64,000 nt of DNA from Raillietiella orientalis (GCA_036172245.1 JAYWIR010000068.1:62001-126000), one strand, 5' to 3'. Positions 5,328-24,559 are shown, numbered from the stretch's first letter. The notes: generated by a model from the sequence alone, not told the origin. Numbers and translations are program-made.

Positions 5328-5340
5328 AAAAGGGGAAGAC

Positions 5341-6183
5341 CTATTTCTTGGCCTTCCTGAGCTTCTTCTGTCTGCGAGAGCGTGCTCTTCCAGACGTCGA
5401 AGAAGCAGCGGGCTTCTCGCTGCCGGCGTCACTCTCCGTACCTGTGAGGTCGGTAATTTCCGCCTCCTCCGTAGAGTGTTCCGCCTGCGCAATCAATTTT
5501 CGAGATAGCGCCTCTATCTCGACCTTGGCGCAGAAGTTCGCCTTCACGTCGAGAAGCTGTTCCTCTAACTTCTCGCGTTCAGCGACCTCCACCACCTGGT
5601 TGATGTTCTCTTGTGCAGTGCAGATCTTCTGCAAGATTTTCTCTTCCTGAGGACCGCTCTGCACCTCCATGATCTCCTCCGCCAGTGTTGCCAACTCCTC
5701 CGTGGTCTGCAGAGCTTCCTGCGACACTTTAGTGGCTTCCTGTCTCTCTTCCTTCGCGCCTTCCTGCGCTACCTCCATCTTCTCGCCTTCCTGCTCTGCT
5801 GCTTCCAGGATTTGAGGAGTTCCTTGCTCCTTGACGAGCATCCTCCTCTTTCCCTTCTTTCCCACTTCTATGAAGCCGTCCGCCGACACCGGGACGGCTT
5901 CTTTCACTTTTTTCTGCCTTCCTGCCTTCTGAGGCTGTTCGGCCTCCTTGATGTTTCTCTCTCTCACGGGAGAGAGACCTCGAATCCTTCTGCAGTTTTC
6001 AAACTCCGGACAGCTCCATTTCGCATGTCCGTGTTTCTTGCAGAAGGAGCACACCTCCGGCTGCGGGCGGTTTCGGACTTGATGTCCTACTTTGCCGCAG
6101 CGGAAACAACGACACGTTGGGCAAGCGCCGGCCCTGTGGCCGAACTGCTTGCACCCGGTGCAGAATACCGGTTGTTGCCGGTA
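5341..6183 (-). pseudogene. LINE ORF1 C-terminal part (three CCHC-type zinc knuckles + Glu/Lys-rich region)
   Basis: Frame of ORF 5341..6054 stays open upstream and reads YRQQPVF-CTGCKQFGHRAGAC-PTCR-CFRCGKVGHQVRNR-PQPEV-CSFCKKHGHAKWSC. Stop at 5341-5343 lies 13 nt before the ORF2 ATG. No N-terminus: the frame meets the direct repeat at 6184 and hits a stop at 6193-6195. Confidence 0.85.
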
Positions 6184-6199
6184 ACCCCCAATTCAAGGT
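6184..6199. repeat. Putative target-site duplication, copy at the element 5' end
   Basis: ACCCCCAATTCAAGGT, identical to 1662-1677; coincides with the loss of recognisable ORF1 sequence. Confidence 0.8.
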
Positions 6200-7618
6200 C
6201 GTGGCTACCGAGGAACGGTAGCTGTGAACGCAGCCTCCAGTTGCTTTCTGCACGCTGCGCGCTCTTTGCGTACCTCCACGAAACTCCTCCACCTGCAGCT
6301 CCATCTCAGAGCGGCAGAGGGAGATTTGGCAGGAAGCCCCCGTCTCTGTAGTTTTGACTAGCTCTTCTAGATGGCGTTCGGATCCCGGATTTGTGCGTTG
6401 GCTCTTCTCGACCGAGGAGGGCGAAGGGCAGACGAAGAATGCTGTTCGCTCCAACTGACCCAGGAAGGAGCTTGGGCTTCTTCCTCCTCCGGGCAAGAGA
6501 CCCTCCAGACGCGCAGCCACTCCCGCAGCCTCGCCTGCGCGCGGCCTGACCGAGCAGAAGGCCGGGACGAGCGACGGGTCCGGCAACCCGGATCGCAACT
6601 TGCACAGGACGAGGCGCTTCCCGACGGCGGCGGTCACCGGCTGCAAGGCGGCTCAAGGTCGCAGGAGATGGCAAATTTCAGGCGGAACTTTTCCAACTTT
6701 TCGCGTTGGACTGGATGACGCATCGACATCCGCAGTCCATCCCGAAGGTCTCTTTTTCTTTCTCTCTGAGTGACATCCCGACGGTGTTCCGTGCTTCTCC
6801 TGAAGTGGCGGGACTCGGGTCTCCCCATGCAATTCACGTCGTCTCCACTGGAGCGGAAGAGGCACGGCTCGTGGCTGAGCCCCCGGCCCCCAAGGGGCAA
6901 CGTGGAGCACGCGTGCTCTCCACGAGTGGTGGAAGGTCACCTGCGGCGGCGGCGATCTCGGCCTCGAGCTGCACTTGAGGAGCTGTGGCAGGAAGGAACC
7001 GCAGTCCGCGGGAGGAAACGGCAGTCCAGGGGTGTGCTGACCACTGTGCTCTCCTTCACCAAGATGGCCGCATCCACGACAGCAGAGGGAGGAACTCGCC
7101 GGCATCCCAGAAAGAATGATGATCAGACAAGACACCCGGTTGAGCCTGGGCGTTTGTTTATATAAAATGAACATAGATGTCGATGGCAGCACTCTTCGTC
7201 CCGCTACATCACAGATGCAACCATGGCAACCTGCCGAGGAGCGGCACGCTTTTGCCTAGACGACCCCAAAACCATTTTCCGGCGCCTCTTCATGCGTAAC
7301 GTCCTGCCGCCAGCAGCATCTCTAGCAGTTCTCTGCTCCGTGCGCGGAAGCGTGGCAAAGTGAAACGCGAAAAGAGGGCACAGTAGCAGGGATGCCATCC
7401 ATTGGACGGGAATCTCCTTTAAGACTGGGTCCCGATGGCTCCAACTGCAACCAAAGATGCAGAATGCATCCTAAACAGGATGCAGAGAACGTCTCCGGGT
7501 TAACAGTGATCCCTTCCCGCCCCTCTTTCCCCTAAAAACTCCTCCTCCCCCATTTTTATCTTTTTTTTTGGCTTGTGTTTGGTTTTCCCTCTTCCATTGC
7601 CGCTGGGGAGGAACTCAC

Positions 7619-7760
7619 GGGTCTGAATACCGGTTTTCGGCAAGTTCTACCACGCACATTCGCGCGTGGTAGAACCACGTGTTCTACCACGATTTTGTAA
7701 TCACGACTTTTATAATTTTTTTTTATAATAAACGCCCCAGAAAATCCGGATGGCAAACCC
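7619..7760. repeat. Short hairpin-rich, MITE-like element
   Basis: GTTCTACCACG at 7644-7654 and 7681-7691 with its reverse complement at 7665-7675; imperfect terminal inverted repeats at about 7619-7638 and 7740-7760. No clear TSD. Confidence 0.4.
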
Positions 7761-8879
7761 GCGCGTCGAGAAGCCCTCCCCTTGAACTTCTTATCCCTTA
7801 ACTTGGAAGCTTCGTTCCTGGGTGGTTTGTTGAGCTCTCCCGATTAACCCTCCCGGTGCAACCGGGTGATAAACGACGGAAAGCGACCCGCAGGCGCTGC
7901 TTCTCGTGAGCAGCTCGTCCGTTGAGTTCCTCACGAAACGAGTGGGGGAAGGGGTAAACAAAACAAAAAAAAAGCCGTTTTTTTGTCCGCCTCCAGCCCA
8001 AAAAATGTTGGGGGGGAAGAGAAGGGATGATGGACTTCTTGCCAGCGTGCTCAGCTTCCTCTGGAGGATGTTGGCAGCTTCCTCCTCTTCTTGTTGGTAG
8101 CGGCGTGGCCATCTTGTCGCTTTCCTCGTAAAGGGGCAAGAGATTGCGATGACGTCACCGTTCGACCAGCCTCTTCCTGCGCTGCTGATCGCCTCCACAA
8201 TCCCACGAAGGCGGCACGGAGCTGCGAGGGAAGCTGCAGGCCACGTCGAGTTGCGCACGAAGAGGCCCCGCATGACCTCCCCGCCGTTGTCCATGACGAC
8301 TGGGAGGGCCGCGGCGTTCCCGCGCTCTCAGGAGGGCAACGACGCAACCCAGCGACAGGAGCAGGTAACCTTCCCGCCCCTGTTGTTGCGCCTGGCACAG
8401 TCCGCTACTTCACTGCACCTCGTCCAGTGGTGGACTCGCGCGTCGCCTGGGATCGCCCAGTGCGACAACTGGGATGCCGAGTCCTGCTTCACTTCAGGGG
8501 AAGCGTGGAGCTGCCCACAAACTCAGAGGGACTTTTCGTTCCTTCTGGAGGAATGCCCAAAAACTTCGTACAGTGAAGGATTCTCCGGAGAGGACGGCGG
8601 GGGTGGAGGCGGCAGCCAGTCGACGCGCCGTCTAGCATTCCAGCTGCTTTCCCCCGATCTTGCAGGACGATTCCCATCTTTCAAGGCCATGGCCGTTCCC
8701 ACTTCGTTGGGCTAAGTGTGGCTGCTGCAAGTGGGGGGTGCTTCATGCTCAGAGGGTCTTCCTCGGGCAATCCATGGTTTGCTGCAGCGTACAGCGAGCG
8801 CAGCTCGAGTATTGCAGGCATCGCGATAGCTCCGAGCTCTTGCCGTCTCTTGCCGCCCACGCCTGAACCGTTCGCTGTT

Positions 8880-9215
8880 CCTTTTTTGGGGATTCGCCAA
8901 GTACCTCAAGAACAGTCACGCACCTGGAGGCCCACGCAGCTCTTTGGCGCCGTTCCACGCCACCCGAGCGTGAGTGCAATTCTTCAAGATAGTGGGTGCT
9001 CGGGAGGGGACCGCCTTTGAATCTAGGAAAGGCTTCAGAAAAGGGAGTCCGTGCCTCTTACGCTTGGGATGGCTCCTACAAAGGCCACTGTCACCCTGGT
9101 TGTCTCAGAAGGGAACCTCGAAGATGTCCGCTCTGTTTTTTTCTTCTCCAGAGGGAACCCTCTAGGAAGCAGTTTTCTATTTCCTTCTCCTCTGAAGATA
9201 ATCCCGAAAGGACGC
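8880..9215. repeat. Diverged repeat, copy A (inverted relative to about 10290-10620)
   Basis: CACTGTCACCCTGGTTGTCTCAGAAGGGAACC (9086-9117) matches the reverse complement of 10347-10378 at 28 of 32 positions; weaker colinear similarity continues on both sides. Boundaries approximate. Confidence 0.65.
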
Positions 9216-10289
9216 TTCCGAAATTTTCTCAGAAGGGCGCTCCCCGAGGGGAGCAGCGCGATTTTTGGCACTCTGGAAGGGCATCACCAATCCACCAACT
9301 CCATCGTACAAGACAATGGTCCCTCCCCCGTCTTCTTTGTACAAGTGGAGGGGAACTACCACTCGCTGATTTTGTTTCCTGGAAGGACCCCGGATGGTCG
9401 ACTCCCAATCCCGGCCCCTCATCAGGGACATCCGGTTTGAACAGCTACCAGCGCCGCACCCAAACACAAGTCAGTCAGCATCATCTTACGGGATGAACTC
9501 GAATCCAAGACGCACCTCCATCTCTTGACATCGATCTTTCCCCTGGTGAGATTCGAACCCGCGCCGCCTGTTGTCACGCGCGGAGACCACGACCATGTGA
9601 CCTCTGACGCAAATAAGCGCTGCCGTTTCCTGTTTCCAGGAGCGACAGGTGGCGTATCGGCGGAAAATCCATCTGTTCTCCCAGGCCGAGGCAACCTTTG
9701 GGAGGACGCACTGGTGAGGAAGAGGACCAGGCGAGGAGATGGTCTTGGATTGATCCTCTTCAGCTGCTGCGCTGGGGTGGTGACTTGAGCCCGCAGGGCC
9801 AGTCTTGAAACCCTGCCCCCCAGTTCTCCTTGAGCCCCAGCAATCCCAGTGCTCGCCGATGATCCGCTCCACCCTCCAGATGCACCGGCACGTGGCACGC
9901 AACTGAGCTGGAGGCGGACAAGAAAAAAGTGCGATGCGGTGCTTCTGGGAGCGACAGACCACCAGAGAGCGGGAAGAGCTCGCTGGGATCACGCAGGGAA
10001 GACACCTAAGGTGCACCGATCGGCGAGTTCGATTGCGAAACAGCATGGCCCATCCCCTTGGCGTCTGTCGCCAAGGCGCAATACCTCCCTTCGAGGGGGG
10101 CGAATTCCTTCCGCCCGAGCGAGCTGCCACTTGGGGCACCTTCGCGATGACCAAACTGAGGTCCTCTGTTATTAGTTTCCCTCTCACCACTGGAGTCAAG
10201 AAACGCTTGCGCTCCACCCTGCGGAAGGCGCTGTGGCCCCGGTAGGCCTGTGGCGCAACCGCACGTCGAAAACGCTTCTTCTCCCTTTG

Positions 10290-10620
10290 CTAGAGACTCT
10301 TCAGGGTTCTCATCACAGGAGTAACAAGGAGCAGCGGTTGTGTCAGGGTTCCCTCCAGAGACAACCAGGGCGACGGTGACTCAGGAGGTTCCTTCCAGAG
10401 ACAACCAGGGAAATGATGACCCCCGAGGTCCCTCCCGGATAGTAAGATGAATGGACTTCTTTTTCCAGAGACCCTCCAGGACTCATAGGATGGACCCCTC
10501 CCATGATACCTCCTTTAACTTAAAGAGCGACCCTCACCCATGGGAGACGTGGAACTGTGCTAAAAGGTCCCATTAGCCCCTAGGCGAAGGTTCTTGGGTG
10601 TTCAGTAAACCAACACAAAA
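10290..10620. repeat. Diverged repeat, copy B (inverted relative to about 8880-9215)
   Basis: See copy A; contains two tandem ~40-bp units with GGTTCC(C/T)TCCAGAGACAACCAGGG at 10347 and 10387. Boundaries approximate. Confidence 0.65.
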
Positions 10621-10786
10621 AAAAAACCTCCCCAACAGAAGAGGGAAGGGAAGCATCGAAGACGGAGATAGTTCCCAAAAATCACCATCAAGGACATCTG
10701 CCTGCCGAGAAGCCTAAGGAGAGTGGACATTCCCACCCTGCAAATCCTCCTCGATCCACTCTCAATCAGGACGCTACAACTGGATG

Positions 10787-13234
10787 TGTGGCGGAAGTAG
10801 TGGAGGAACTCCCAGAGTTGCCTCGGAGACACGGCGGCTTCTTCCCCCACGTGAGGGAGGGCGGCAGCGCCTCGACGGACGCGGGAGACTGCGCGCGCGA
10901 ACGCGAGCGCGCCGCCTCGAGGGCCGCGCTCTACCGTCCCCCGCGGTCGCGCACCGCCCGCCGGACAGCGGGTCAGCGGCTTCGCTTCTCCCAGAGGCCC
11001 CCTCCCTCCCCACTCGGCCCGCCGAAACGCGGTGAAGGCATCCTCCGGACGGGAGCATCCGCTTGGCACCGGCAGCGCGACCGGAAACGGCGGGCGCGAG
11101 CAAACGTCTCCAACGAAACTGCTGCGGACGCGTGGAGACGCACGCAAGCGGCACCTCTTCCCCGAGGTGCTTCCCCACCGTCCCGAAGCAACACCCAGGC
11201 GCCAGGGGCAGCGCACCTCACAAGGACCGCTCCCTCGCCCTCGCTGCCTGCGAGCATCCCGCAAGCTTCCCCCCTCCAGCCAAGTGCTGCCGGACGGTCG
11301 AGCGCCAACAAGGCGGCTTGGAAGAGGCGACGGCGAAGACGACGCGAATACCGCCTGCGCCGTCCGTCGCCGGCATCGGACAATGGACGGGAAACCTTCG
11401 TTCCTTCCTATCGGAGAAAAGACGGCAGCCACTGGGCAAGAGAGCGCCCGCAGAAAGAGCCACGCTGCAAGGGCGAACACCTTGCGACCAGAAAGACCAT
11501 GCTGACGCGCACACCGACGACTCCGCGAACTGCAGCGCCAGCAAGCGGTCGCGCTCAAAGGCGTGCCGACAGCACGCAGGGACCGTTCAGCTGTGGACAT
11601 TTTCCCCCTTTCACGCGAAAGAACGCACTCTGCAACGCAGCCTCGCTTGCATGCATGCAGCCCGGCCCCACACACGTCACACCGCGCATGGCCACCACCT
11701 TCACAAGGAACACCCCTGACATCCCTTACTAATCGCAAGCACCCAGTTTCGCCACAGCTTTCCACCTTGCTCGGTGCGATCTCGTCCACGGCCATTCAGC
11801 GGACGAAGAACGAAAGCCGGATCCCCGACAATCCGGAAGCAACCATTGGACAACGCATCCCAATGGGTGCACAGTCCTGAACACCTTTTATTCAAGGCAA
11901 CTGCTCCACCGAGCAAACCGAGCGTTCAACACTCGATGCTTCTTGTTGGTCTTGCGGACTCCCAAACCATTCGTCGCATCTCCGAAGTGGGTGGCATCTT
12001 CCGAAATGGCAACTTATCCATCCATAATTTGATCTCAAACGGACTGCCTGGGATAGGCAACCAGCCAAAATCACGCTTCGGCCAAGCAGGCACTCCCCTT
12101 CTTTCCTTCCAACCTGCTTCCCATTTGGTAGCATGAGCTAGAACAAACACCCTTCCTCCTCATTAGGCCACCACACTAGAAATCCGCCAGCAAGTGAGCA
12201 ACAAGTAGGTGCCAGCAGCAGCAGTGGTGACTTGGTGCAGCACTGCTGAACAAGTGGAAAAAGATGTGCACAGCAGTTCTCACACCACACTGGCAAGCAG
12301 CTTGTGTTTGTACAAAACAAAGTCACAGTTCAAATTCCTGCTTTTGTCAGAACTTTGGAAGGGAAGCTTTCTGGGAGCAACCTCAAAATCACTGCACAAG
12401 CATCAAACTTCCTGGACAGCCTGGAGTTTCGCACCACACAGGGGAGAGGTAATCCAAAAAAGCAAAACTGGGGCCGCAGAAGATCCAAATGGCAGGCCTG
12501 CTGGCTTCACCTACGCCGCCGTCTGTGAGTGTGTTTCGGGGCTTTCACAAATGCCCAGTCCACACTGATGGGTTGCCCCAGAACCTCAGCTCCTGCTGAT
12601 CCCAACAGGGCATTCGAGGCTTCTTTGTATGTCTCAAATTCGACAAGGGCGTAACCCTTGAGGAATCCAGTGCGACGGTCCATATTCAGATGCAAATTCT
12701 TGATCTCCCCGTATTCAGAAAATTTCTCCTGGATATCATCCTCCTGTGCCTCTTCATGGACTCCAGTCACAAACAGGATCCACCCTTCCACAGCTGCAAA
12801 GAAGACCACTGCAATCTTTGATCCTAAACACCTTTTCCTTACAGCGTTGTGGGCCAGGCAGGTCATCACCATCCACATCCACCGACTCGTAGAGATTCAC
12901 ATCCGTTTTTGTGGAGCTGTCCAATCCAAATCCTCGACCCTTTCGGTGCTTCACTTTCTCCTTCAGTTTTTGAACCCCTTCTGCAAACTGCAGTAATGTA
13001 CGGGAAACCTTCACAAAAACGGCAAACTCACGGTCTCCTTCCTCCTCCACTTCAAACTCTTCTGCATGGATGTCCAACACATCTGCCATTTCAACAGGAA
13101 ACAGGAATCAACGAGATGGACTCGAACACGCGCAGGCGCGATGCCAACTGAAATAGTACACTGCAAGTGAAGCCCATTCTTGCCTACTGGGAAATACTCC
13201 TCTCCCCTCACAACACCCCAAGCATGATTTCCCC
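10787..13234. repeat. Left arm of 2,448-bp inverted duplication
   Basis: Reverse complement of 14876-17323; mirrored ORF pairs have coordinates summing to 28110 (e.g. 12507+15603, 10973+17137, 12754+15356), so no indels. Confidence 0.97.
12507..13089 (-). CDS. RBM8A: RNA-binding protein 8A / Y14 (exon junction complex core), left copy, 160 aa
   Basis: Exons 13089-13032, 12980-12843, 12793-12507 with GT-AG introns; protein MADVLDI...[13 protein letters not shown]...[23 protein letters not shown]...[21 protein letters not shown]...VDWAFVK is the Y14 RRM signature. AATAAA on minus strand at 11887-11892. Confidence 0.96.
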
Positions 13235-14970
13235 TATGATCCCCTATGTACATCATACAGTCTCATGACGCTGGAAAGTCTGAGTATGTTCTTATTAGTA
13301 GTTTTAGGCTAAAACAAATGTTACAACAGGCTTTCCACAGTTCGTATTGGCACTACCCATACACTTTCATTATGTTTGGCAAGCACAACTGCCTCTTCCT
13401 ACATGAAACGAGGGAAATACGACATGGTGCCTTAGCGACCCCACTGCTCGTCCAAAAGAGCTTTTCACAAGGAATACGAAAATGCATGCCTTCTAAAGAA
13501 TTCGGAATATTGTGGGAATCATGGATTCCGCCAGCCTCTTACAGGGATTTAGAAAGCTGATGGCGACTTCGCAGTGGATGAGCGGACAGCATTGTAAACT
13601 ACGCCGCAGTAGCCCATTCAGCAAAGTACATTAAAAACGACACACATGGGAGAACCCAACACACGCATTCACCGTTTCCAATTCCACACCCACAGTTCGG
13701 AATTGGGCTCCTCAAGAAATGCTCATACGACCTTTCACGGAAGTACCACCTCCTTTCGTGGTTTACTCGCGCGGAATGAATTCGCGCATTACTAATCCGA
13801 ATTATTGAAGATGCAGTGCATGGTTTTGTAATGAACTTTTCGTAGGTGGCAGTGGTCACTTTGGAATGATCAGTTTAATTTTTTTAACACACAGATTGGT
13901 TGGGTTCATAGTTGACTAAGTTTATGATTCCAGAGCCCAAAACTTGGAATTCTTGGATAAGATTAAGAATATTCTACAAGAGACAAAAAAAATGGCTCTA
14001 CTTTCTCTGTTGTACATAAATTATCAGAAGAACAATTATTCAGCTGAAGATAAAACCAAATTGTATCCTTAGAAGATATTTTTAATTGCATGTATGATGG
14101 AAGGGAAAATACTTTAAGAAGATTCTTTTGTTATGTGGCATGTGTCCTGATACTAAAAATTTCCAGAAACACAATTTCTCCGAGTGCAAATACTAAAAGC
14201 TTCTGAACTGTGAAAAGATCGTGTCGTGTCATGTTTCCTTTTCATTGAGGAGGAACAACTGGAACGTTTCGAATCTTGATCTTTTACGTAAGAAAGGATA
14301 GCTTGGCATCTCTGCTTCCTCACGCTACTGTTATTTTGCAAATATCCTGCCCAGAATTGCTTGAAAAAAGCTGCAGCAAGTCTTCACGACACCGTCGGCT
14401 ACATATCGTTACAGATTCACGTTCTATAGCCAAGTCTCGCATACCGAGAACATTTTGAAGGTGAGTTACTTAAGTTTTCTTAAGTAATCGTATCGTGCCT
14501 GCCTTCCATTTTGAGAAGAATTGCCTAAATATCCTATGATGTCTGGTAAAAATAGATGTTTGTCTTTGTTTTGGGAGTTGCTAAAAGTTTTCACACTGAG
14601 TCCCTGATAAGCGAAAACAAAAATAAATATTCAAGAGAAGTGAGCGAAACTTTCGAGAGCAGTCCAATAAAACAGATTGCAGGAAAACATTCCCGGTTAG
14701 CGTACAGAACGAAAGGCAGGGGAAAGACCCAATGCTCTTTATGCTGGCTCACGCCCGTGTTCATCCAACCAGAGCATAAGAAGCGACACTGTTTTGTAAA
14801 TAGCCACCACCTATTTAGATACGATACGGAATTAAAGAATCCCACAATAATGAGAAACGTCATGGATCATGTTTTGGGAAAATCATGCTTGGGGCGTTGG
14901 GAGGGGAGAGGAGTATTTCCCAGTAGGCAAGAATGGGCTTCACTTGCAGTGTACTATTTCAGTTGGCATC

Positions 14971-14980
14971 GCGCCTGCGC
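14971..14980 (+). promoter_or_regulatory. NRF1/Erect-wing-like motif upstream of RBM8A (mirrored at 13130-13139)
   Basis: GCGCCTGCGC matches GCGCNTGCGC, 41-50 nt before the ATG. Motif match only. Confidence 0.35.
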
Positions 14981-15020
14981 GTGTTCGAGTCCATCTCGTT
15001 GATTCCTGTTTCCTGTTGAA

Positions 15021-15603
15021 ATGGCAGATGTGTTGGACATTCATGCAGAAGAGTTTGAAGTGGAGGAGGAAGGAGACCGTGAGTTTGCCGTTTTTGTGAA
15101 GGTTTCCCGTACATTACTGCAGTTTGCAGAAGGGGTTCAAAAACTGAAGGAGAAAGTGAAGCACCGAAAGGGTCGAGGATTTGGATTGGACAGCTCCACA
15201 AAAACGGATGTGAATCTCTACGAGTCGGTGGATGTGGATGGTGATGACCTGCCTGGCCCACAACGCTGTAAGGAAAAGGTGTTTAGGATCAAAGATTGCA
15301 GTGGTCTTCTTTGCAGCTGTGGAAGGGTGGATCCTGTTTGTGACTGGAGTCCATGAAGAGGCACAGGAGGATGATATCCAGGAGAAATTTTCTGAATACG
15401 GGGAGATCAAGAATTTGCATCTGAATATGGACCGTCGCACTGGATTCCTCAAGGGTTACGCCCTTGTCGAATTTGAGACATACAAAGAAGCCTCGAATGC
15501 CCTGTTGGGATCAGCAGGAGCTGAGGTTCTGGGGCAACCCATCAGTGTGGACTGGGCATTTGTGAAAGCCCCGAAACACACTCACAGACGGCGGCGTAGG
15601 TGA
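15021..15603 (+). CDS. RBM8A: RNA-binding protein 8A / Y14, right copy, 160 aa
   Basis: Exons 15021-15078, 15130-15267, 15317-15603 (483 nt); introns of 51 nt (GTGAGT..TTGCAG) and 49 nt (GTAAGG..TTGCAG). Same protein as the left copy. AATAAA at 16218-16223. Confidence 0.96.
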
Positions 15604-18600
15604 AGCCAGCAGGCCTGCCATTTGGATCTTCTGCGGCCCCAGTTTTGCTTTTTTGGATTACCTCTCCCCTGTGTGGTGCGAAACTCCAGGCTGTCCAGGA
15701 AGTTTGATGCTTGTGCAGTGATTTTGAGGTTGCTCCCAGAAAGCTTCCCTTCCAAAGTTCTGACAAAAGCAGGAATTTGAACTGTGACTTTGTTTTGTAC
15801 AAACACAAGCTGCTTGCCAGTGTGGTGTGAGAACTGCTGTGCACATCTTTTTCCACTTGTTCAGCAGTGCTGCACCAAGTCACCACTGCTGCTGCTGGCA
15901 CCTACTTGTTGCTCACTTGCTGGCGGATTTCTAGTGTGGTGGCCTAATGAGGAGGAAGGGTGTTTGTTCTAGCTCATGCTACCAAATGGGAAGCAGGTTG
16001 GAAGGAAAGAAGGGGAGTGCCTGCTTGGCCGAAGCGTGATTTTGGCTGGTTGCCTATCCCAGGCAGTCCGTTTGAGATCAAATTATGGATGGATAAGTTG
16101 CCATTTCGGAAGATGCCACCCACTTCGGAGATGCGACGAATGGTTTGGGAGTCCGCAAGACCAACAAGAAGCATCGAGTGTTGAACGCTCGGTTTGCTCG
16201 GTGGAGCAGTTGCCTTGAATAAAAGGTGTTCAGGACTGTGCACCCATTGGGATGCGTTGTCCAATGGTTGCTTCCGGATTGTCGGGGATCCGGCTTTCGT
16301 TCTTCGTCCGCTGAATGGCCGTGGACGAGATCGCACCGAGCAAGGTGGAAAGCTGTGGCGAAACTGGGTGCTTGCGATTAGTAAGGGATGTCAGGGGTGT
16401 TCCTTGTGAAGGTGGTGGCCATGCGCGGTGTGACGTGTGTGGGGCCGGGCTGCATGCATGCAAGCGAGGCTGCGTTGCAGAGTGCGTTCTTTCGCGTGAA
16501 AGGGGGAAAATGTCCACAGCTGAACGGTCCCTGCGTGCTGTCGGCACGCCTTTGAGCGCGACCGCTTGCTGGCGCTGCAGTTCGCGGAGTCGTCGGTGTG
16601 CGCGTCAGCATGGTCTTTCTGGTCGCAAGGTGTTCGCCCTTGCAGCGTGGCTCTTTCTGCGGGCGCTCTCTTGCCCAGTGGCTGCCGTCTTTTCTCCGAT
16701 AGGAAGGAACGAAGGTTTCCCGTCCATTGTCCGATGCCGGCGACGGACGGCGCAGGCGGTATTCGCGTCGTCTTCGCCGTCGCCTCTTCCAAGCCGCCTT
16801 GTTGGCGCTCGACCGTCCGGCAGCACTTGGCTGGAGGGGGGAAGCTTGCGGGATGCTCGCAGGCAGCGAGGGCGAGGGAGCGGTCCTTGTGAGGTGCGCT
16901 GCCCCTGGCGCCTGGGTGTTGCTTCGGGACGGTGGGGAAGCACCTCGGGGAAGAGGTGCCGCTTGCGTGCGTCTCCACGCGTCCGCAGCAGTTTCGTTGG
17001 AGACGTTTGCTCGCGCCCGCCGTTTCCGGTCGCGCTGCCGGTGCCAAGCGGATGCTCCCGTCCGGAGGATGCCTTCACCGCGTTTCGGCGGGCCGAGTGG
17101 GGAGGGAGGGGGCCTCTGGGAGAAGCGAAGCCGCTGACCCGCTGTCCGGCGGGCGGTGCGCGACCGCGGGGGACGGTAGAGCGCGGCCCTCGAGGCGGCG
17201 CGCTCGCGTTCGCGCGCGCAGTCTCCCGCGTCCGTCGAGGCGCTGCCGCCCTCCCTCACGTGGGGGAAGAAGCCGCCGTGTCTCCGAGGCAACTCTGGGA
17301 GTTCCTCCACTACTTCCGCCACATACCGCCGGGTCAAGTGGTCGGTGGCTCGTACATCTGATTCGCTCTGTGCTTCGCCTGCTGGGATTGCCGGAAGTGT
17401 CGCGCGAGGGGAGAGCACCTTGCTGCTTGGTAGGCGTTCTGCCGACGGCTCGCGGACGGCAGGATGGCGCTTCCGCGCCCGCCGTTGGATCGGCTGCGGA
17501 AAGCTGTCGGCAACGACCGGAGGTGGCAGGCGTAGCGCATCCAGAGGCCGAGTCTGGCCCCTCGTCCACGCGAGCTGTGGTGGCCACACCTTGCCGACTT
17601 CCGTTCTTCCGCGGTCTTCTGTTCGCCACTACACGGAGTGGAGCTGCCTACCTGCCTTGCAAAGCGACGAGTGTTGCGCTGCAGTAACAGAGACCGGGTT
17701 GCGCCTGCGCGGAAGACAGGCGACGCCGATTGTGCGTCAGGCGGCAGCGCCAGCTGGCAACGGCCTGGGGTGGTGTCGCCAAGTGACGGCGGGTGCTTCC
17801 CGTCCGCGTTCTTCCCTTTTCTTCGCGTCCCCACCTCCGCGTGCCTAGGGACGCCCCCGCCCTCCCGACCTGCTTTTCCATGCGACCATCATCTCTGGCG
17901 AATGGATCGCGGCGGGAGCTTCGGGAATGCGTGGAAGGCGGTAGGGAGGCCCCTCTTGGAGACTCCGTTCGCCCATGTCATCTGCCCCCAGGCTGAGGTG
18001 ACCGCGTAGGCATCTTCATGCGGGAGGCGACGCGCACGCCAAAGAGTCGCCTCGGACGCTCGGCTGGGTGACCCCCGTCCGCCTCTCCTAGCCGGACGTC
18101 CCCTTCCCGGGAAGCTGTCCAGCGAGGATGGAGGGCGCCGCCTGGCCCGGCGATACTCTCCTTTACGGATACCGGAGCTTTCGATGGCTGCCTTTTGCCA
18201 TGAGATGATGACGGAGACGGGGCCTCGCCCTCCCGGCCCGGTGGCAGCGTTTCCGGGATCTTAGCGACGGGACGCACGTCGCCCGCAGTCGCATCCCAAC
18301 GCTTTCCTCGCAGCAGGGGGTAGCGGTCGCAGACCAATGACCTGCATGCTCGAGAGATTCCGCGTGTAGCGCGCTGCCGTTTCGGGGCTAAGGGTTTTGG
18401 GCCGGCTGCCCTCCTCGCGCCCGGCGTGCAGCCCCCCCCCCCCCCCCCCGCGACAAGCGAATTCGTGCGCTGCCTCCGGGTGGCGACTCTTCCCCGGTCT
18501 CGGCACTTTTCCCAAGGGTCACCCTTGTGACGGGCGCCATCTTACCGCTCCCGACTCTGTCGATGGGAGGGGCAACCCGAAGCAGCATGCCCCAGGGTTG

Positions 18601-21600
18601 TGCGCCGGCGAAGAAGCAGCGGTCGGCTAGTCCCCGTAGCCCGGATGCGCCCCCGGGATGTTCCTTGATGGAAAGTGAGGAGCCAGTAGCGGATGGTGTG
18701 ACGTCATCCTCCGCCGAGTGCGGCGCCAACGAGGTCCACACCGAGGGGGACGGGGTGGGCCACGGTCAGAAACGTCTTGTCCTTTCCAGGACCTCGCCTT
18801 GATGGCGACGTCCCGGGTGGGACCACCCCCGCAGGCACCGGGCGGTGAGGAGAGCGGCCACCCCGTCGTTTCGAGGTGGCGCCTCTGGGGTTGTCCACGA
18901 GGACGGGTAGAGACGCGGACACACGACCCACGACTCCCAAGCGTACTGGCACGCGGGGGTCTCCCTTTGCCCACTCCTGGGGCAGTAGGCCCGGCACCCC
19001 TTGGGGTTCCCGGTGCGACGCCGGCTTTCATGACCCCCTCTGCTTTCACCTGACGGGGAGGGACGAGTAGCGCCCGACCACTGGGGGGTGCTTGCAGCTC
19101 CCCCGGTGGCGCCAAAGAAGCTCAGTCCAGAGAAGACATCCTCTTGGGGGAGGGAGGGAGGGGGTCAGTCGCTGCACCTCTAGCGAGCGGTCTGCCCATG
19201 GAAGGGGGGTGCCAGGTACCCGAGGTCCCTCAGGGAACCTCCCGCTTCACGGGAAGGCAGGCGCCGGGGGGCCTCGTGGACGATGGACTTTGTTGCGGAG
19301 AAAGGGTAGATTGCTCCACTCCTGGCACCGCTGGATGTCGGCGCCAGAGGTCGGCGCGTCCTCGCAGAAATGCAGCCTGCGGCGTCCCGGTCGCCGGGTG
19401 TCGCCTCCGTCTCGGGCGACGCTCGGACAAGCCGGAAGACGCGCACCTTACGCGGACGCACGGTCCTCTGGGAGACGGACGCAGAGCCACTGGAGATGAA
19501 CGTCTCCTGGATGCTGGGGTTCTGCTCCCACCAGACATCGCCGGTGACCGCGGGGGGTCGTGTTCCGGGAACACGCAGACGGCAGTCTTCCCAGGGCACG
19601 CAGCAGCACGTAGTTCCAGTAGGCGAGCGAAGATGGCGCTCTCCTTGCGGGTCAGCGGAGAGCTCCCGCCAGAGGGTGAGCGAGGTGGAGGAGGAGGAAG
19701 GGAGGGAGGAGAAGCCGTGGCAGGAGTCGAGGAGACGGGGGCGCGCCTCTTCCCATTGTCCTCCCTTCCTCCCTACCCGCATAGCGAAACGCGACCTCGC
19801 TCGCCCCAGGGGCGCTTGCGCGGATGCCCTCACCCTCCTTTCCGACCGGAGGTTGGCTCGGCAACTCCGGATCGTCGTCAGCGTGGCCTCCTGTGCGAAC
19901 CCCTCCTTGCGCTTCGGGGTAGGTCGATCCCCGCCGCCTCCTCCTCGGCCGAGAGCGGAGGAAGGGAGCACCACTAAGGCGCCATTCGCCTGGCGCGATC
20001 CACTTCCGCGCCGCTTGCCGCGGAGAACGCGCAATTCTGCGATCCCCGACCCCCCGCTTCGTCGACTCCTTTCGGCGATCCTCAGTGGGAAGAGATGCGC
20101 AGGGATGCGTGAGACACCGCAAATCCACTTCCATCGGTGGTAGCGAAGGAAAGTGGCGTGTCGAGAGCTTCCGATCGATAAAGCGGTCCATCTCCACTCA
20201 ACGAAAACAAAATGTAGTCGGGAAGAACGGGAATTCGCGGCTCCAGCCGCTGCCCAAACAACCGCGCGCACAAACGCACGCGCCGGAAAAGGGAAAGGGG
20301 GGGTACGGAAGGAGGGAGGGGGGGGAGGACGAAAGAGAAAAGAAATCCTCTCGCAGACAGGATATCCGCCCGTGGCATCTATCGGGGTTACCGAGAACTA
20401 AGTTAAGTTTGCGCCCGCAACCCGAGTGCGCTCCGTGATTCGTACGTTTACAACCGTGTGGCTGCGAGGAATGTCCGCTTGACAGGGGTCAAAAGGAACT
20501 GAAATTGAACGATGGGATACAGTGCGACCCTCGAAAGCAACTGTTGTGCCCGTTGTTGTCGTGGACTGCGGCCCTCGCTTCCCGCGGTCTCCGGCACCTG
20601 AATCCGAGTTCCATGCTTTCCCTGGACATGCGGACGTTGATGATTGAAGCCTAATGGTATTGTCATCAGATTTGTTTACTGTTGCTTTTAATCCTGCGGT
20701 GGCGTGTTGAGGTCATTCTTTTCTTTTTTTATTTTTTTTTTTTATTCTTATGTTTTTCCACTCGCTGCTCCGACCGGATGGAGTTGCTCGGCGTTTGGTT
20801 TCCTCAAATGTTTGTGTCCGCGGCTCCTTTGATCGTCTTTGCAAGTGTTTGCGGGATTCGAAGGAAACGCGACGCCCGTTCTCCGCGCCGTTCGGTTGTT
20901 TTTGCTAAATCGGGGGTGCCACCACGTCGCGCTCGGTGTCGCCTTGTGCGACGCCTCCGCGTTCGGTGTCTGTCGCAATGCCAACGGCTCCCCCGTTGCG
21001 TACGACGAAGGGATACCTAGAGTGTAGCGCGTGCACCTCACGTGTTCCCTGTCCGTGGAGGAGGGGGAGGGATGGCGCAACCATCGCCACCGCCGCGATA
21101 AGAGAGGACTCCGCAACAATGGAACACGGGCGGAACGCCGCAGTTTCCGGTCTTCCATTGTTGCGGAGTGCACGGGGAACACGTGCGATGCACGCGCCGG
21201 TGTTCCATTGTTGTTCGACGGAGGGGTACCCGTCGTCGGCTGTTGGGTCAAGAATACGCTTGGTCTCCATGGTTTCGTCTCCAGCGTTCTCGAGGAACGC
21301 TCGCTACCGTGTCGCGCGCGAACGTCGCGCATTCCGTGGGTCCGTGTGCTGGCCGTAAGCTGTGCCCGGCACTTGCGTGTTTTTTTTTTTTTTTTTCGTG
21401 CATCCAGTGGGCCAGCACGTAGGGATGCTGGCTGGAAAGTAATGAAAAAACAATAAATAGTAAACAAAGTGCTCGTGAAATGTTGTGCCGATCAGCGGTC
21501 CCGAGTTTCCCAAGCGGTCGTTAATCTCGGGGAGCTGGAAGAGCAATAACTCCGGACACGTCGGTCCGTGAAATTGAAGGCAGAGATCGCGACCGCTTGC

Positions 21601-23488
21601 TTCTTCCAAGACGCCAACTGCAAGGGGATTAAAGGGGAAGCAAGGCATAACATAACAGGGGGGTAGTGTTCGTGACCCTAGGAAGTATTGATCGGAAGCC
21701 CCAGTCCATCTGAAAAGCCACACGGAAATAATGGGCTGGCATGCTCCAGATGTCCTTGAACCACTGAAATCGTAAATCGCAGATGTCGTTTGAGCAAGTA
21801 TTATTAAAGTAGCTGCATGCGGTGTTCTGCAGGGTACGAGGAGCGGGGAGGCAGTGAAACATGGAAGGAAGAAAGAAAGGGAAAATTAAAAAAACTGTAC
21901 CGTGGCCGCGCGTTTCTTTTTTTTTTTTTTTGTCCTTTTTTTTCTTTTTTTAATTTGCTACTTGATTTACAAATGCGTTGGCGTTTCCTTTTTTTTCTTT
22001 TTCTGTTTTATTGTTTTCCTTTTGTTTCTTGCGCGCGTCTGCGTGCGTGCTTCCTCTTATCTTTCCGGAATGGCATTTCCCTGCACTCGCGCTGTCCAAA
22101 AGGGGGAAAAAAACACCAAGGCTGGCGTCAGATTTCAGGCGACGTTCCCGAGACGGGAGGAGGCAACGGAGCAGAAGCTGGTTGAGTCCTCCTGGCCCCC
22201 GGTTGACTCCCCCTCGCGCGATCGGATGCTTCGAAAAGAAAAGAAAAAAAACACGTCGTGGGACGTGCTCCAGAGTATTCCGCCGAAACTGGCACGATGC
22301 AGATAAGATGAGCATGGTACGGAGAGTCGTAAGGGGCTTTTTTTGTGTGTGTGTTTCGTGGTCCCAAGCGCCTCTGGGCTTCGTGTGATAAAGTGAACAC
22401 TTCCGGTTCGTGTGCCCATCGCAAGCGCCGCCGGCGAGCTCGCACGCCGGAGGGCATCGGAGACGAGGATGAGACGCCCGTTTCGGATGGGGGATGACCG
22501 CAGGGTCGTGTCCTGGGAAAGAAACGGCGAAGCGCCCCTGTTGCCATCGTTCTGCCTGCGAGGAAGCCGTTCGGACGTCCGTTTGGCCGGTGTCGGGCAG
22601 GAGGCGTCGGCGCCACCACCGGGACACCCCCCTCCGTCGGCCGCAGCCCGCAATGGAGGAAACGGGAGCAGGGGCGGACGGGAAGAGATGCGGGGCGAAG
22701 TTGGCGCGCGCGCGGCGTCCTTTGAGCGGTCTTGGACCTCAGCAGCTGTTTGGCCCGGCTTCACTTCCTTTCTCTGAGCTCCCGAGGATGCGGTGCCGAT
22801 TCTTCGTTAAGAGCGGAGCGCTCCCGTAGAAAAACCTTTCAGCGGCTCGCCCGTCTCCTTCCTTCCCACCGCCACTGCCAGGAACCTATTCGCGCCGTCG
22901 GGGAACCCATGCGGTCGTCCCCGTCGCTCCTCCGTCGTCGGCCAGTGGCTTCCCTTCCTCCTCCACCTCCTTTTCTTCGCTTCTTCCTCCTCCTTCCCTG
23001 GCGACCTTTCTTATATCAGAGGGTACTGCGCGTTTCCTAGCAACCTTGACACGTTAGGCATTCGGAGGTAAAAGCGTCAGGACCATCATAAATGCCACTC
23101 GTAATTTTTAATTGAACCACCATCAGCTCCGCGACGCTGCATCCGTGTCGCACGACACTTCGGCGTCCCTCTCCAATCGAGTACAATTCCTGCATGATTT
23201 TGTACACGCCGTACGCACTGTGCGATGGGGAAATGAGGCTCTTTGGTGCACCTTCTGCTCAGCTCGGCAGCGGAAATCGAGTCGGTGGATCGGGGAGGAG
23301 GGGGGAGCGGTCTCGCGCTCGCTAGAAGCGGACAGGTCGCACCACCTGGGGGCAGGGTCACCCGTTCCGGAGAAAGTCGGAGTGGGGACGAAGCCTGCGG
23401 CGAGGGGCAGACGGTTGGCAGGTTCCGTCCGGTAGGACGCCAAGTTTATTGCGGTCCGTTGCAGCTGGAAAGCAGCGCGCGCGCGCCG

Positions 23489-24559
23489 ATGCTTTCGCCG
23501 ACGGAGCGCTGCCGCCTGGCCGTCGTCGCGCTCTTCCTGCTGGTCGGCGACCGGGCGACCACCGCTGCTGCTTCGAGCCTGCCCAACTGCCAGGACGCCA
23601 ACGCGCGATGCCTCTACAGCGACGCCTGCCGCCACGCGGTGCAGCAGTTCCACAGCCTGTGCGAGGACGTGGTCAGCGGCCGCTGGAAGCACTGCACGAC
23701 GCCCTGCCGCGATGCCACCATCGTGCTGCTAGCGGGCACGGAGGAAGGACGTTCTCTATGGGATGTGCGTATCTCTCTTTTTGATTTTTTGTTTTTGTTT
23801 GTTTGTTTTGGAAGGGGACGGGAACTGTTCTTCTTCCCCTCTTACTCCTCTCTTCTCCTCCTCCCCTCCTCCTCTTCCCTTCTCCGTCTTCCCCTCTTCC
23901 CTTCCTTGTCCTCCTCCTTCCCCCTCTTCTTTTCCCCTTCCACCGCTGCCCCTTTCCCCCGAGTCGGTCGGTACGAGAGGAGATCACCAGTGCCTTCGTC
24001 TGACCCCCAGTGCCGCTGTGAAGACGAGGGTTGCGAGGAGATCAAGCGGGGCGTGGAAGTCTGCCGTGCGCCGGTCCTCCGGCAGCTCCGCAACGACAGC
24101 AGCGTCCCTTGGGGGTGTGGTCCGGCTCACGCCTTCTGCGAGGCGGACCCCGTGTGCGCGGAGGCGCTGCACTACTACTTCTTCAACTGCCGCGCTATGA
24201 TCCGCGGGAGACAGTGCTCCAACCGCTGCCTCAACTCCATCTCCATCCTCTCCCGCCAGAAGCACGCTGTCCACCTGCTCACCTGCGTCTGCGACGGCAC
24301 GGAGGCCTTCAAGTGCAGCAGGGTGCAGCAGAACACGCTGCGCTTGTGCTACCCGAGCAAGGCACGGCACCGCCAGCCCGCGGCCGTCGCTCCCGCGGCG
24401 GCGGAGCCTCCGGGCGCCATCCGGACCGTCGGCGGCAGCAGCGATGGAGGGCCTCCGCCGCCCTCCGCGACTGCCGGTCGGGGCGGCCCTTGGGCGGGCC
24501 GCGCGCCTTCGACTGCCCTCCTCGTCCTCGCCGCGCTGCTCCTCCTGGTCCGCAGATGA
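23489..24559 (+). CDS. Gas1: Growth arrest-specific 1-like protein (two GDNF/GAS1 cysteine-rich domains, signal peptide, GPI-type tail), 274 aa
   Basis: Exons 23489-23764 and 24011-24559, phase-0 intron GTGCGT..CCCCAG. Hydrophobic N-terminus, CQDANARCLYSDAC...TEEGRSLWD|CRC and CEADPVCAEALHYY...CSNRCLNSISILSRQ...LLTCVCDG, hydrophobic C-terminus ALLVLAALLLLVRR. Confidence 0.88.
   Translation: MLSPTERCRLAVVALFLLVGDRATTAAASSLPNCQDANARCLYSDACRHAVQQFHSLCEDVVSGRWKHCTTPCRDATIVLLAGTEEGRSLWDVRISLFDFLFLFVCFGRGRELFFFPSYSSLLLLPSSSSLLRLPLFPSLSSSFPLFFSPSTAAPFPRVGRYERRSPVPSSDPQCRCEDEGCEEIKRGVEVCRAPVLRQLRNDSSVPWGCGPAHAFCEADPVCAEALHYYFFNCRAMIRGRQCSNRCLNSISILSRQKHAVHLLTCVCDGTEAFKCSRVQQNTLRLCYPSKARHRQPAAVAPAAAEPPGAIRTVGGSSDGGPPPPSATAGRGGPWAGRAPSTALLVLAALLLLVRR

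What the first reader, a model, noticed from the sequence alone, without database searches (positions are those of the whole stretch)
10787..17323. Palindromic head-to-head duplication of the whole RBM8A/Y14 gene
Seen: two 2,448-bp arms (10787-13234, 14876-17323) are indel-free reverse complements around a 1,641-bp unique spacer. Each arm has proximal upstream sequence, all three exons with introns, the AATAAA and about 1.1 kb of downstream DNA, so this is a DNA-level duplication, not a retrocopy. Known: Y14 is a core exon-junction-complex subunit, forms an obligate heterodimer with Mago, is dosage-sensitive and is usually single-copy. Inference: two intact copies transcribed divergently from a shared spacer, possibly doubling dose.
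Basis: partly seen in the sequence, partly recalled or inferred. Interest (0 to 1): 0.8.

Follow-up and report, generated by a model that had tools for sequence, protein, structure and literature searches.

The report
Head-to-head duplicate Y14 genes
An arthropod genome window holds two mirror-image copies of the exon-junction-complex gene Y14 (RBM8A/tsunagi) that encode the same protein, set around a 1.6-kb spacer; it looks like an ordinary young inverted gene duplication, and sequencing reads could not confirm it here.

Summary
Arms 10787-13234 and 14876-17323 are indel-free reverse complements (2,444 of 2,448 bases agree) around a unique 1,641-bp spacer. This is the only long repeat in the 64-kb window. 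Each arm carries a complete three-exon Y14/RBM8A gene: 145 bp of upstream DNA with an Inr-like TCAGTT, 51- and 49-nt GT-AG introns, one AATAAA, and 1.1 kb of non-coding GC-rich DNA. Both copies encode the same 160-aa protein. The single coding difference is a synonymous Ile codon.

The two outer flanks are unrelated to each other. The spacer has no mirror symmetry, and the structure lies well inside the window. A fold-back read, a haplotype mis-join or an inversion heterozygote therefore cannot produce it. GC content is continuous across the right outer junction but jumps from 0.49 to 0.75 at the left one, so the right copy is probably the parent. Three of the four mismatches lie in the last 25 nt next to the spacer, which looks like a breakpoint scar.

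The read-level test failed: one low-coverage run reached only one junction. Expression, dosage and mago copy number are untested.

Verdict: probably real (about 0.75), and an ordinary young inverted duplication like the Drosophila Hsp70 or Amy pairs. The scan has reported gene-bearing palindromes before, on other DNA.

The parts
10787..13234 (-). Left arm of the palindrome (probably the derived, inserted copy)
   Evidence: GC jumps from 0.49 to 0.75 at its outer junction.
12507..13089 (-). Left Y14/RBM8A gene: exons 13032-13089, 12843-12980 and 12507-12793 (stop included), 160 aa
   Evidence: Mirror of the right-arm model. The protein is identical to the right copy, and the exon-3 translation is identical.
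13146..13151 (-). Inr-like TCAGTT, 62 nt upstream of the left ATG
   Evidence: Motif match only. Its role as a start site is inferred.
11887..11892 (-). AATAAA poly(A) signal of the left copy
   Evidence: Mirror of 16218-16223.
10787..11886 (.). GC-rich non-coding outer block of the left arm (GC 0.66, CpG obs/exp 1.11)
   Evidence: No codon-position periodicity in any long ORF and no Pfam hit.
13210..13234 (.). Inner 25 nt of the left arm, holding 3 of the 4 arm differences (13210, 13215, 13231). Candidate breakpoint scar or pre-existing short inverted repeat.
13235..14875 (.). Unique spacer, 1641 nt, GC 0.40, with no internal mirror symmetry and no ORF of 120 aa or more lying wholly inside it. 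Probably the native upstream region of the right copy.
14876..17323 (+). Right arm of the palindrome (probably the parental copy)
   Evidence: GC is continuous into the right flank: 0.75, 0.665, 0.695.
14959..14964 (+). Inr-like TCAGTT, 62 nt upstream of the right ATG
   Evidence: motif match only.
15021..15603 (+). Right Y14/RBM8A gene: exons 15021-15078, 15130-15267 and 15317-15603 (TGA stop), introns of 51 and 49 nt, 160 aa
15041..15041 (+). The only coding difference between the copies: Ile7 is ATT here and ATC in the left copy (13069). It is synonymous and can serve as an expression marker.
16218..16223 (+). AATAAA poly(A) signal of the right copy, the only one between the stop codon and the arm end
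16224..17323 (.). GC-rich non-coding outer block of the right arm, continuous with a GC-rich block in the right flank

Best explanation
This is a real inverted segmental duplication (a small palindrome) in an arthropod genome. A 2.45-kb unit was copied in reverse orientation to a site 1.64 kb upstream of the original. The unit holds the whole Y14/RBM8A gene with its core promoter, both introns, the 3' UTR and 1.1 kb of downstream non-coding GC-rich DNA.

The right copy (14876-17323) is most likely the parent, and the left copy (10787-13234) the insert placed between the present left flank and the spacer. The event was probably a replication template switch or an ectopic repair-synthesis event with little or no microhomology. 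The three mismatches in the last 25 nt next to the spacer would then be a breakpoint scar.

The duplication is probably young. Without gene conversion, 1-4 differences in about 2.4 kb correspond to roughly 1e5 generations, using a recalled insect mutation rate. Both copies are structurally intact, encode the same protein and point away from each other, so both are expected to be transcribed. How far this raises Y14 dose depends on whether 145 bp of native upstream DNA suffices as a promoter.

Shown: the structure, gene integrity, identical proteins, unrelated flanks and the compositional asymmetry. Inferred: genomic reality, polarity, mechanism, age and expression.
For: 1. The arms sit exactly as reported, with no indels and 4 mismatches of 2448.
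2. All four junctions are distinct. The outer flanks are unrelated, and the spacer has no mirror symmetry and no other copy in the window. The structure is gap-free, with 10.8 kb of sequence to its left and 46.7 kb to its right (no N). A fold-back chimera would give mirror-image flanks and no spacer. A haplotype mis-join would give homologous flanks. An inversion heterozygote would reuse the same inner junction. None of these fits.
3. The arm differences are not spread evenly. Three lie in the last 25 nt at the spacer (P about 4e-6), which is the pattern of a junction scar rather than scattered allelic sites.
4. GC in 200-nt steps runs 0.75, 0.665, 0.695 across the right outer junction but jumps from 0.49 to 0.75 at the left one. 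The left flank (0.49-0.53) matches the start of the spacer (0.43-0.49). That fits an insertion of the left arm into formerly continuous DNA.
5. The gene is complete in both arms: canonical splice sites, one AATAAA, an Inr-like TCAGTT at -62, and a 160-aa product aligning end to end with 12 orthologues at 60-74% identity.
6. One 151-nt contig of run X1 matches the left inner junction with 0 differences, against 14 differences to the mirror position on the right side. That junction therefore exists in short-read data. The piece reaches only 12 nt into the spacer, below the tool's 31-nt bridging rule, and the run may come from the same sample as the assembly.
7. Inverted pairs are common among young linked duplicates in animals, at 20-50% (PMC3194840, passages read).
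Against: No read or contig spans an arm together with both of its unique sides. Three of the four junctions have no cover in the only run found, so reality rests on the logic of the assembly.

Near-identity of the arm interiors (0 differences in the outer 2,282 nt) is also what consensus or polishing would give if reads from the two arms cross-mapped, so the true divergence could be higher.

If the DNA had been whole-genome amplified, as is common for small arthropods, palindromic chimeric reads would have been abundant (PMC6218980, passages read).

No clear microhomology or target-site duplication marks the junctions, so the mechanism is not pinned down. The polarity argument rests on composition alone. 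No RNA data exist for either copy.
Confidence: 0.75

Rival explanations
1. An old palindrome kept nearly identical by arm-to-arm gene conversion (concerted evolution), as in the Drosophila Hsp70Aa/Ab and Amy-p/Amy-d pairs or the primate sex-chromosome palindromes. This shares the core claim of a real duplication and differs only in age and maintenance. The confidence given is a share of the real case and is not additive with the best explanation.
For: Divergence is concentrated at one arm edge: 3 of 25 nt differ there, against 1 of 2,423 elsewhere. That could mean the edge shows the true age while the interior is homogenised. Palindromic gene pairs in Drosophila are documented to undergo ectopic gene conversion (PMC3924832, passages read).
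Against: Conversion should spare both edges, yet the outer 166 nt of the arms show 0 differences and end abruptly. No decayed homology continues into the spacer or the flanks. The sharp GC step at the left outer junction looks unblurred by time. The arms are not GC-enriched relative to the right flank (0.66 against 0.67), so biased conversion has left no sign specific to the arms.
Confidence: 0.25
2. An assembly or consensus artefact. The genome would have one Y14 copy, and the second arm would come from chimeric (for example amplification-derived or fold-back) long reads or from a wrong path through the assembly graph.
For: The arms are almost identical, and no independent read evidence exists for three of the four junctions. 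Palindromic chimeras are frequent in amplified long-read libraries, at 40-50% of reads in one data set (PMC6218980, passages read).
Against: Read-level palindromes fold one region back on itself, which gives no unique spacer and mirror-image flanks. Here the spacer is 1,641 nt of unique sequence, the two outer flanks are unrelated, and both continue for many kb. A single-copy truth cannot supply four different junctions without two independent chimeric joins at exactly matching arm ends. The clustered differences at the inner edge and the compositional continuity on only one side are not expected from an artefact. There are no Ns and no other repeat in the window.
Confidence: 0.18
3. The arms are the long terminal inverted repeats of a mobile element (a foldback-type or other DNA transposon) that captured Y14. 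Alternatively, the left copy was moved by the nearby LINE.
For: A LINE with endonuclease and reverse-transcriptase domains lies at about 1.7-5.5 kb. Long inverted termini are a feature of some transposons (recalled).
Against: There is no target-site duplication at the outer ends: the left flank ends ...GGATG and the right flank starts TACCG.... The spacer holds no transposase-like ORF and no ORF of 120 aa or more lying wholly inside it. The arm has no other copy in the window, and the arms lack the internal tandem repeats of foldback elements. Introns are retained and no poly(A) tract sits at a junction, which speaks against LINE-mediated retroposition. The LINE ends more than 4 kb away.
Confidence: 0.03

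Closest known systems
Drosophila Hsp70Aa/Hsp70Ab and Amy-p/Amy-d gene pairs in 'palindromic' orientation (PMC3924832, passages read)
   Same: Two complete copies of one gene in mirror-image orientation, tightly linked, in an arthropod, with very high identity between the copies.
   Different: Those pairs are old, predate species splits, and are shown by shared polymorphism and by within- versus between-species comparison to be homogenised by ectopic gene conversion. Here age and conversion are untested, and the edge pattern favours a young event. Those genes are stress or digestive genes, where extra dose is plausibly useful. Y14 is a stoichiometric partner of Mago.
Young inverted gene duplicates of animals, including the excess of close inverted pairs among the youngest C. 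elegans duplicates (PMC3194840, passages read; it cites Katju and Lynch 2003)
   Same: A multi-exon gene duplicated at the DNA level in inverted orientation a short distance away, with near-zero synonymous divergence. The whole gene plus a short flank is copied.
   Different: That is a statistical class and not a mechanism. This case adds a fully resolved structure with a compositional hint of which copy is the parent.
Primate X- and Y-chromosome palindromes (PMC8327919, search listing and start of the abstract only; Rozen et al. 2003, seen only as a reference inside PMC3194840 and PMC3924832)
   Same: The arm-spacer-arm architecture with more than 99.8% arm identity and protein-coding genes in the arms.
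   Different: Those arms are 8.7 kb to 1.45 Mb long (figures quoted in PMC6218980), carry testis-biased gene families and are conserved across species. This one is 2.4 kb, carries a housekeeping gene, and its chromosome and conservation are unknown.
Fold-back-primed and template-switch inverted duplications (PMC10622511, passages read)
   Same: They give an inverted copy adjacent to the original, with a short imperfect inverted repeat at the centre of symmetry as the priming site. The 22-of-25 match at the inner arm ends could be such a site.
   Different: The spacers used in yeast were 6-35 bp, and the products are terminal duplications that pass through dicentric intermediates. Here the spacer is 1,641 bp and the duplication is interstitial, so it needs a second switch back.
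Palindromic chimeric reads after whole-genome amplification (PMC6218980, passages read)
   Same: Inverted repeats of one region that are identical at the sequence level.
   Different: Those are read-level fold-backs of a single region. The structure here has a unique spacer, two unrelated long flanks and clustered arm differences.

Membership tests
RBM8A / Y14 / tsunagi (exon-junction-complex core subunit) | A single central RRM domain | tested here: met
   Pfam RRM_1 E 1.2e-14, covering residues 6-75 of the exon-3 product.
RBM8A / Y14 / tsunagi (exon-junction-complex core subunit) | Specific similarity to Y14 rather than to other RRM proteins | tested here: met
   Human RBM8A chains E 1e-41 to 2e-40 and Drosophila CG8781 E 1.3e-39, against the best other RRM protein (PABP) at 1.1e-17. 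In the protein database, 1762 of 1878 candidates have E <= 1e-10, and the named hits among the best 120 listed are almost all labelled RNA-binding protein 8A or tsunagi.
RBM8A / Y14 / tsunagi (exon-junction-complex core subunit) | Full-length architecture: acidic N-terminus beginning MADVLD, the KGRGFG motif, the RRM and an Arg-rich tail, about 160-175 aa | tested here: met
   The spliced 160-aa model aligns end to end with 12 of 12 orthologues at 60.5-74.4% identity.
RBM8A / Y14 / tsunagi (exon-junction-complex core subunit) | Obligate heterodimer with Mago nashi | not tested
   No mago sequence of this organism is available because no genome is held. A complex prediction with a stand-in partner would pass by likeness to solved structures and was not run.
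Retrocopy (processed duplicate) | Loss of introns, a poly(A) tract at the 3' end, and no shared flanking DNA | tested here: not met
   Both introns, 145 nt upstream and 1.1 kb beyond the AATAAA are present in both copies.
Gene-conversion-maintained palindrome | Inverted arms around a unique spacer with very high arm identity | tested here: met
Gene-conversion-maintained palindrome | Arm identity higher than the age of the duplication allows (orthologous palindrome in related species, or polymorphisms shared between arms) | not testable with these tools
   No related eukaryotic genomes or population data can be reached: no genome is held and only one low-coverage run exists.
Fold-back or amplification assembly artefact | No spacer or a very short one, mirror-image flanks or a position at a contig end, and uniform identity | tested here: not met
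   The spacer is 1,641 nt and unique. The flanks are unrelated and extend 10.8 and 46.7 kb. The differences are clustered at one edge.
DNA transposon with long terminal inverted repeats | Target-site duplication, an internal transposase or tandem-repeat-rich arms, and multiple copies | tested here: not met
   No target-site duplication, no Pfam hit in the ORF that overlaps the spacer, no tandem repeats in the arms and no other copy in the window. Genome-wide copy number could not be tested.
Hairpin-RNA (hpRNA) endo-siRNA locus | One transcript that spans both arms, and Dicer-dependent small RNAs from the arms | not testable with these tools
   No RNA or small-RNA run was listed.

The most novel reading that the evidence does not exclude
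The palindrome is more than a passive extra copy. Transcription that reads from one arm through the spacer into the other would give an RNA with a 2.4-kb perfect stem. That is an hpRNA-type source of endo-siRNAs against Y14 itself, so the duplication would create a self-limiting dosage circuit for a core exon-junction-complex subunit, or a germline-specific knock-down. A second version of the idea: both copies are expressed, and the doubled Y14 dose is matched by a parallel mago duplication. That would be a fresh natural experiment on the co-evolution of an obligate heterodimer.
Probability: 0.06. Interest if true: 0.65.

Novelty: new member of a known kind. Interest (0 to 1): 0.3.

Why it matters
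Y14 works one-to-one with Mago and is single-copy in most eukaryotes surveyed (PMC3885619). A very young, fully intact second copy would catch a stoichiometric, probably dosage-sensitive gene in the first moments after duplication. The copy has a built-in synonymous marker (ATT against ATC at 15041/13069) that lets expression of the two copies be told apart. It would also be a cleanly resolved example of an interstitial inverted duplication with a kilobase-sized spacer, where the parent and daughter copies can be guessed from composition.

Beyond that it is an ordinary event. Inverted pairs make up a fifth to a half of young linked duplicates in animals, and most such copies are soon lost. If it is an artefact, it matters only as a correction to the assembly.

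Tried and rejected
1. Whole-genome questions (other Y14 copies, mago count, copies of the arm elsewhere): no genome is held for this window.
2. Public reads: only one run was listed, at a share of 0.06, and no RNA holder was listed. Laid on 6000-22000 it proved to be a low-coverage skim of read-sized contigs. The junctions 10786|10787, 14875|14876 and 17323|17324 have no cover, and depth cannot give copy number. This is no evidence for or against the structure or its expression.
3. A 'frayed' inner edge: a shared ATGATCC just beyond the inner boundary looked like decayed homology with an indel, but 29% of 2000 shuffles score as well. Dropped.
4. Decayed mirror symmetry inside the spacer: only chance-level matches of 23 nt or less.
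5. A second gene in the arms: long ORFs in the GC-rich outer block have no Pfam hit (0 of the 5 arm-overlapping ORFs) and flat GC at the three codon positions, unlike the control genes. They are by-products of stop-poor GC-rich DNA.
6. Non-coding RNAs: Rfam 0 matches and tRNA 0 over the whole window.
7. The bacterial-type promoter/terminator scan of the spacer gave chance level (4 found, 4.0 expected) and does not apply to a eukaryote.
8. A linked mago gene: Pfam scans of 77 long ORFs in all hit only LINE, GAS1/GDNF and YTH domains. Small exons would be missed.
9. Earlier scan notes: nothing on this genome and nothing resembling this sequence. A word search returned palindromes in unrelated genomes only.
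10. Taxon: two protein searches place the window among arthropods, but no relative is closer than 80% (Y14 exon 3) or 63% (full YTHDF exon). No related locus could be fetched.
11. In print: no paper describing a palindromic Y14 duplication appeared in the one literature search that used Y14 and Mago as terms. That single search does not show that none exists.


Full report
OBSERVATION. It is the only repeat of 60 nt or more in the 64-kb window. A base-by-base comparison shows no indels and four mismatches, at 13069/15041, 13210/14900, 13215/14895 and 13231/14879, which is 99.84% identity. The four sites are not scattered. All lie within 166 nt of the spacer (P about 2e-5), and three lie in the last 25 nt (P about 4e-6). 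Homology ends abruptly at all four arm ends. The two outer flanks share nothing better than a 13-nt match. The 40 nt beyond the inner ends align no better than shuffled sequence. The spacer (GC 0.40) has no internal mirror symmetry and no second copy in the window.

WHAT THE ARMS CARRY. On the + strand the right arm holds 145 nt of upstream DNA and an ATG at 15021. The exons are 15021-15078, 15130-15267 and 15317-15603, separated by 51- and 49-nt GT-AG introns, and the gene ends in a TGA stop. A single AATAAA sits at 16218, followed by 1,100 nt to the arm end. The left arm mirrors this on the minus strand (exons 13032-13089, 12843-12980, 12507-12793). Exon 3 has an RRM (Pfam RRM_1, E 1.2e-14). 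It matches human RBM8A chains at E 1e-41 and Drosophila CG8781 at 1.3e-39, while the best other RRM protein scores 1.1e-17. The spliced 160-aa product aligns end to end with 12 of 12 orthologues tested, at 60.5-74.4% identity, including the N-terminal MADVLD...GDQG and KGRGFG motifs and the Arg-rich tail. The two copies encode identical proteins, and the only coding difference is a synonymous Ile7 codon, ATT on the right and ATC on the left. An Inr-like TCAGTT lies 62 nt upstream of each ATG, inside the arms. This is a motif match only.

The outer 1.1 kb of each arm is GC-rich (0.66, CpG obs/exp 1.11). It is not coding: its long ORFs have no Pfam hit and flat GC at the three codon positions (about 0.65-0.70). 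The control genes show periodicity: Y14 exon 3 0.62/0.37/0.55, the GAS1-like ORF 0.65/0.58/0.77 and the LINE 0.57/0.42/0.70. Y14 is therefore the only gene in the duplicated unit. Retention of introns and flanks rules out a retrocopy.

CONTEXT. The window is animal DNA. It holds a LINE with endonuclease and reverse-transcriptase domains at about 1.7-5.5 kb on the minus strand, a GAS1/GDNF-domain ORF at 23237-24559 and a large YTH-domain exon at 57922-59283. None of a further 45 long ORFs has a Pfam hit. There are no Rfam families or tRNAs. The best database relatives of the Y14 exon (80% identity at most) and of the YTHDF exon (63% over its full length) are arthropods of many orders. So the source is an arthropod without a close sequenced relative in that collection. 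No whole genome is held, and the scan has no earlier notes on it.

REAL OR ARTEFACT. The decisive test with reads could not be done. Only one public run holds any of the stretch (share 0.06), and no RNA run was listed. When laid, it proved to be a low-coverage skim of read-sized contigs. One 151-nt piece (13096-13246) matches the left inner junction with 0 differences, against 14 differences to the mirror position on the right. So that one junction exists in short-read data. The piece reaches only 12 nt into the spacer, the run may be the assembly's own sample, and the other three junctions have no cover.

The case therefore rests on structure. A fold-back or amplification chimera folds one region onto itself (PMC6218980, passages read). 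It would give no spacer and mirror-image flanks. A haplotype mis-join would give homologous flanks. A heterozygous inversion of arm plus spacer would reuse the same arm-spacer junction. The sequence instead has four different junctions, a unique 1.6-kb spacer and unrelated flanks that run on for 10.8 and 46.7 kb without gaps. It also has arm differences clustered at one edge. I put the odds that the palindrome exists in the genome at about 0.75-0.8. One caveat: if the assembly was polished with reads that cross-map between the arms, the interiors may look more alike than they are.

HOW IT AROSE (inferred). GC in 200-nt steps is continuous across the right outer junction (0.75, 0.665, 0.695) but jumps from 0.49 to 0.75 at the left one. 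The left flank (0.49-0.53) resembles the start of the spacer (0.43-0.49). The simplest reading is that the right copy is the original, embedded in a GC-rich block that continues to the right. The left arm would then be an inverted copy inserted between what were contiguous left-flank and spacer sequences.

No target-site duplication, transposase or poly(A) tract marks the junctions, and microhomology is at most 1-2 nt. That points to a replication template switch or ectopic repair synthesis rather than transposition. The 22-of-25 match at the inner ends may be a pre-existing short inverted repeat used for priming, as in fold-back priming (PMC10622511, passages read). The spacers reported there are only 6-35 bp, however. 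Alternatively it may be error-prone synthesis near a switch point; that is recalled from Carvalho et al. 2013 and was not seen here.

The outer edge is perfectly clean and only the inner edge is ragged. A young event therefore fits better than an old palindrome homogenised by gene conversion, which should spare both edges. I give about 2:1 for young over old. With a recalled insect mutation rate of about 3e-9 per site per generation, 1-4 differences in about 2.4 kb correspond to roughly 0.7-2.7 x 1e5 generations without conversion.

HOW IT WORKS (inferred). The two genes point away from each other. Each keeps its core promoter region and an identical coding sequence, so both are expected to be transcribed into the same mRNA, apart from one synonymous base. 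Only 145 bp of native upstream DNA was copied. The left copy sees the far end of the spacer in reverse where the right copy sees its native upstream region, so equal expression and a true doubling of dose are not assured. Nothing here tests expression.

COMPARISON AND NOVELTY. A survey of 36 eukaryotes found a single Y14 gene in most and up to three in a few, with duplicates mainly in cereals (PMC3885619, passages read). The one literature search that used Y14 and Mago as terms listed no palindromic Y14 pair. Inverted pairs are 20-50% of young linked multi-exon duplicates in animals, and they dominate the youngest close pairs in C. elegans (PMC3194840, passages read). The nearest named analogues are the Drosophila Hsp70Aa/Ab and Amy-p/Amy-d pairs in palindromic orientation, which are homogenised by ectopic gene conversion (PMC3924832, passages read). 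In architecture, the primate sex-chromosome palindromes are also close.

The scan has already described gene-bearing palindromes on other DNA, in a red alga and in Giardia (e1-556389 and e1-618328; I did not check them). This is therefore a new member of a known kind. It is modestly interesting because the gene is a stoichiometric EJC subunit and the copy is very fresh.

The boldest reading not excluded is that read-through across the spacer makes a 2.4-kb hairpin RNA and endo-siRNAs against Y14, by analogy with the Drosophila hpRNA loci (PMC10317233, search listing and start of the abstract only). I give that about 6%.

VERDICT. Interest is 0.3.

Noticed in passing
window 1756-5492 (minus strand), possibly to about 6200: A non-LTR retrotransposon (LINE). 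One 654-aa open frame carries an Exo_endo_phos endonuclease domain (E 3e-16) and the start of RVT_1 (E 1e-13). The rest of the RT lies in the adjacent frame 2850-3527 (E 6e-12), so the element has at least one frameshift or stop between the two parts.
   Followed up: partly
window 23237-24559 (+): A GC-rich, apparently intron-less ORF of 440 aa with a GDNF/GAS1 domain (E 2.3e-6) and clear codon periodicity (GC 0.65/0.58/0.77). It is a GAS1-like gene about 6 kb to the right of the palindrome.
   Followed up: partly
window 57922-59283 (+): A 453-aa open frame with a YTH domain (E 6.9e-54), AT-rich at third codon positions (GC3 0.24). It is a YTHDF-type m6A reader with most of its coding sequence in one exon. 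The best full-length database match is only 63% identical.
   Followed up: partly
window 1-64000: GC content swings strongly within 64 kb, from 0.32 to 0.68 in 2-kb windows. Long non-coding blocks (about 16.4-31 kb) have GC 0.60-0.68 and CpG obs/exp near 1. They carry many long ORFs in all frames with no coding periodicity and no Pfam hit. The nature of these GC-rich blocks is unexplained.
   Followed up: partly
window 10347-10433: A 40-nt unit repeated 2.2 times (80% match), about 350 nt to the left of the left arm. No link to the duplication junction was found.
   Followed up: no
window 15319-15600 (+) and its mirror 12510-12791 (-): In the RRM, this Y14 reads G-S-A-G-A where most of the 12 aligned orthologues have an L-N-G-type motif. 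It also has IQEKF for IHDKF and KAP for KGP. These are mildly derived residues shared by both copies.
   Followed up: no
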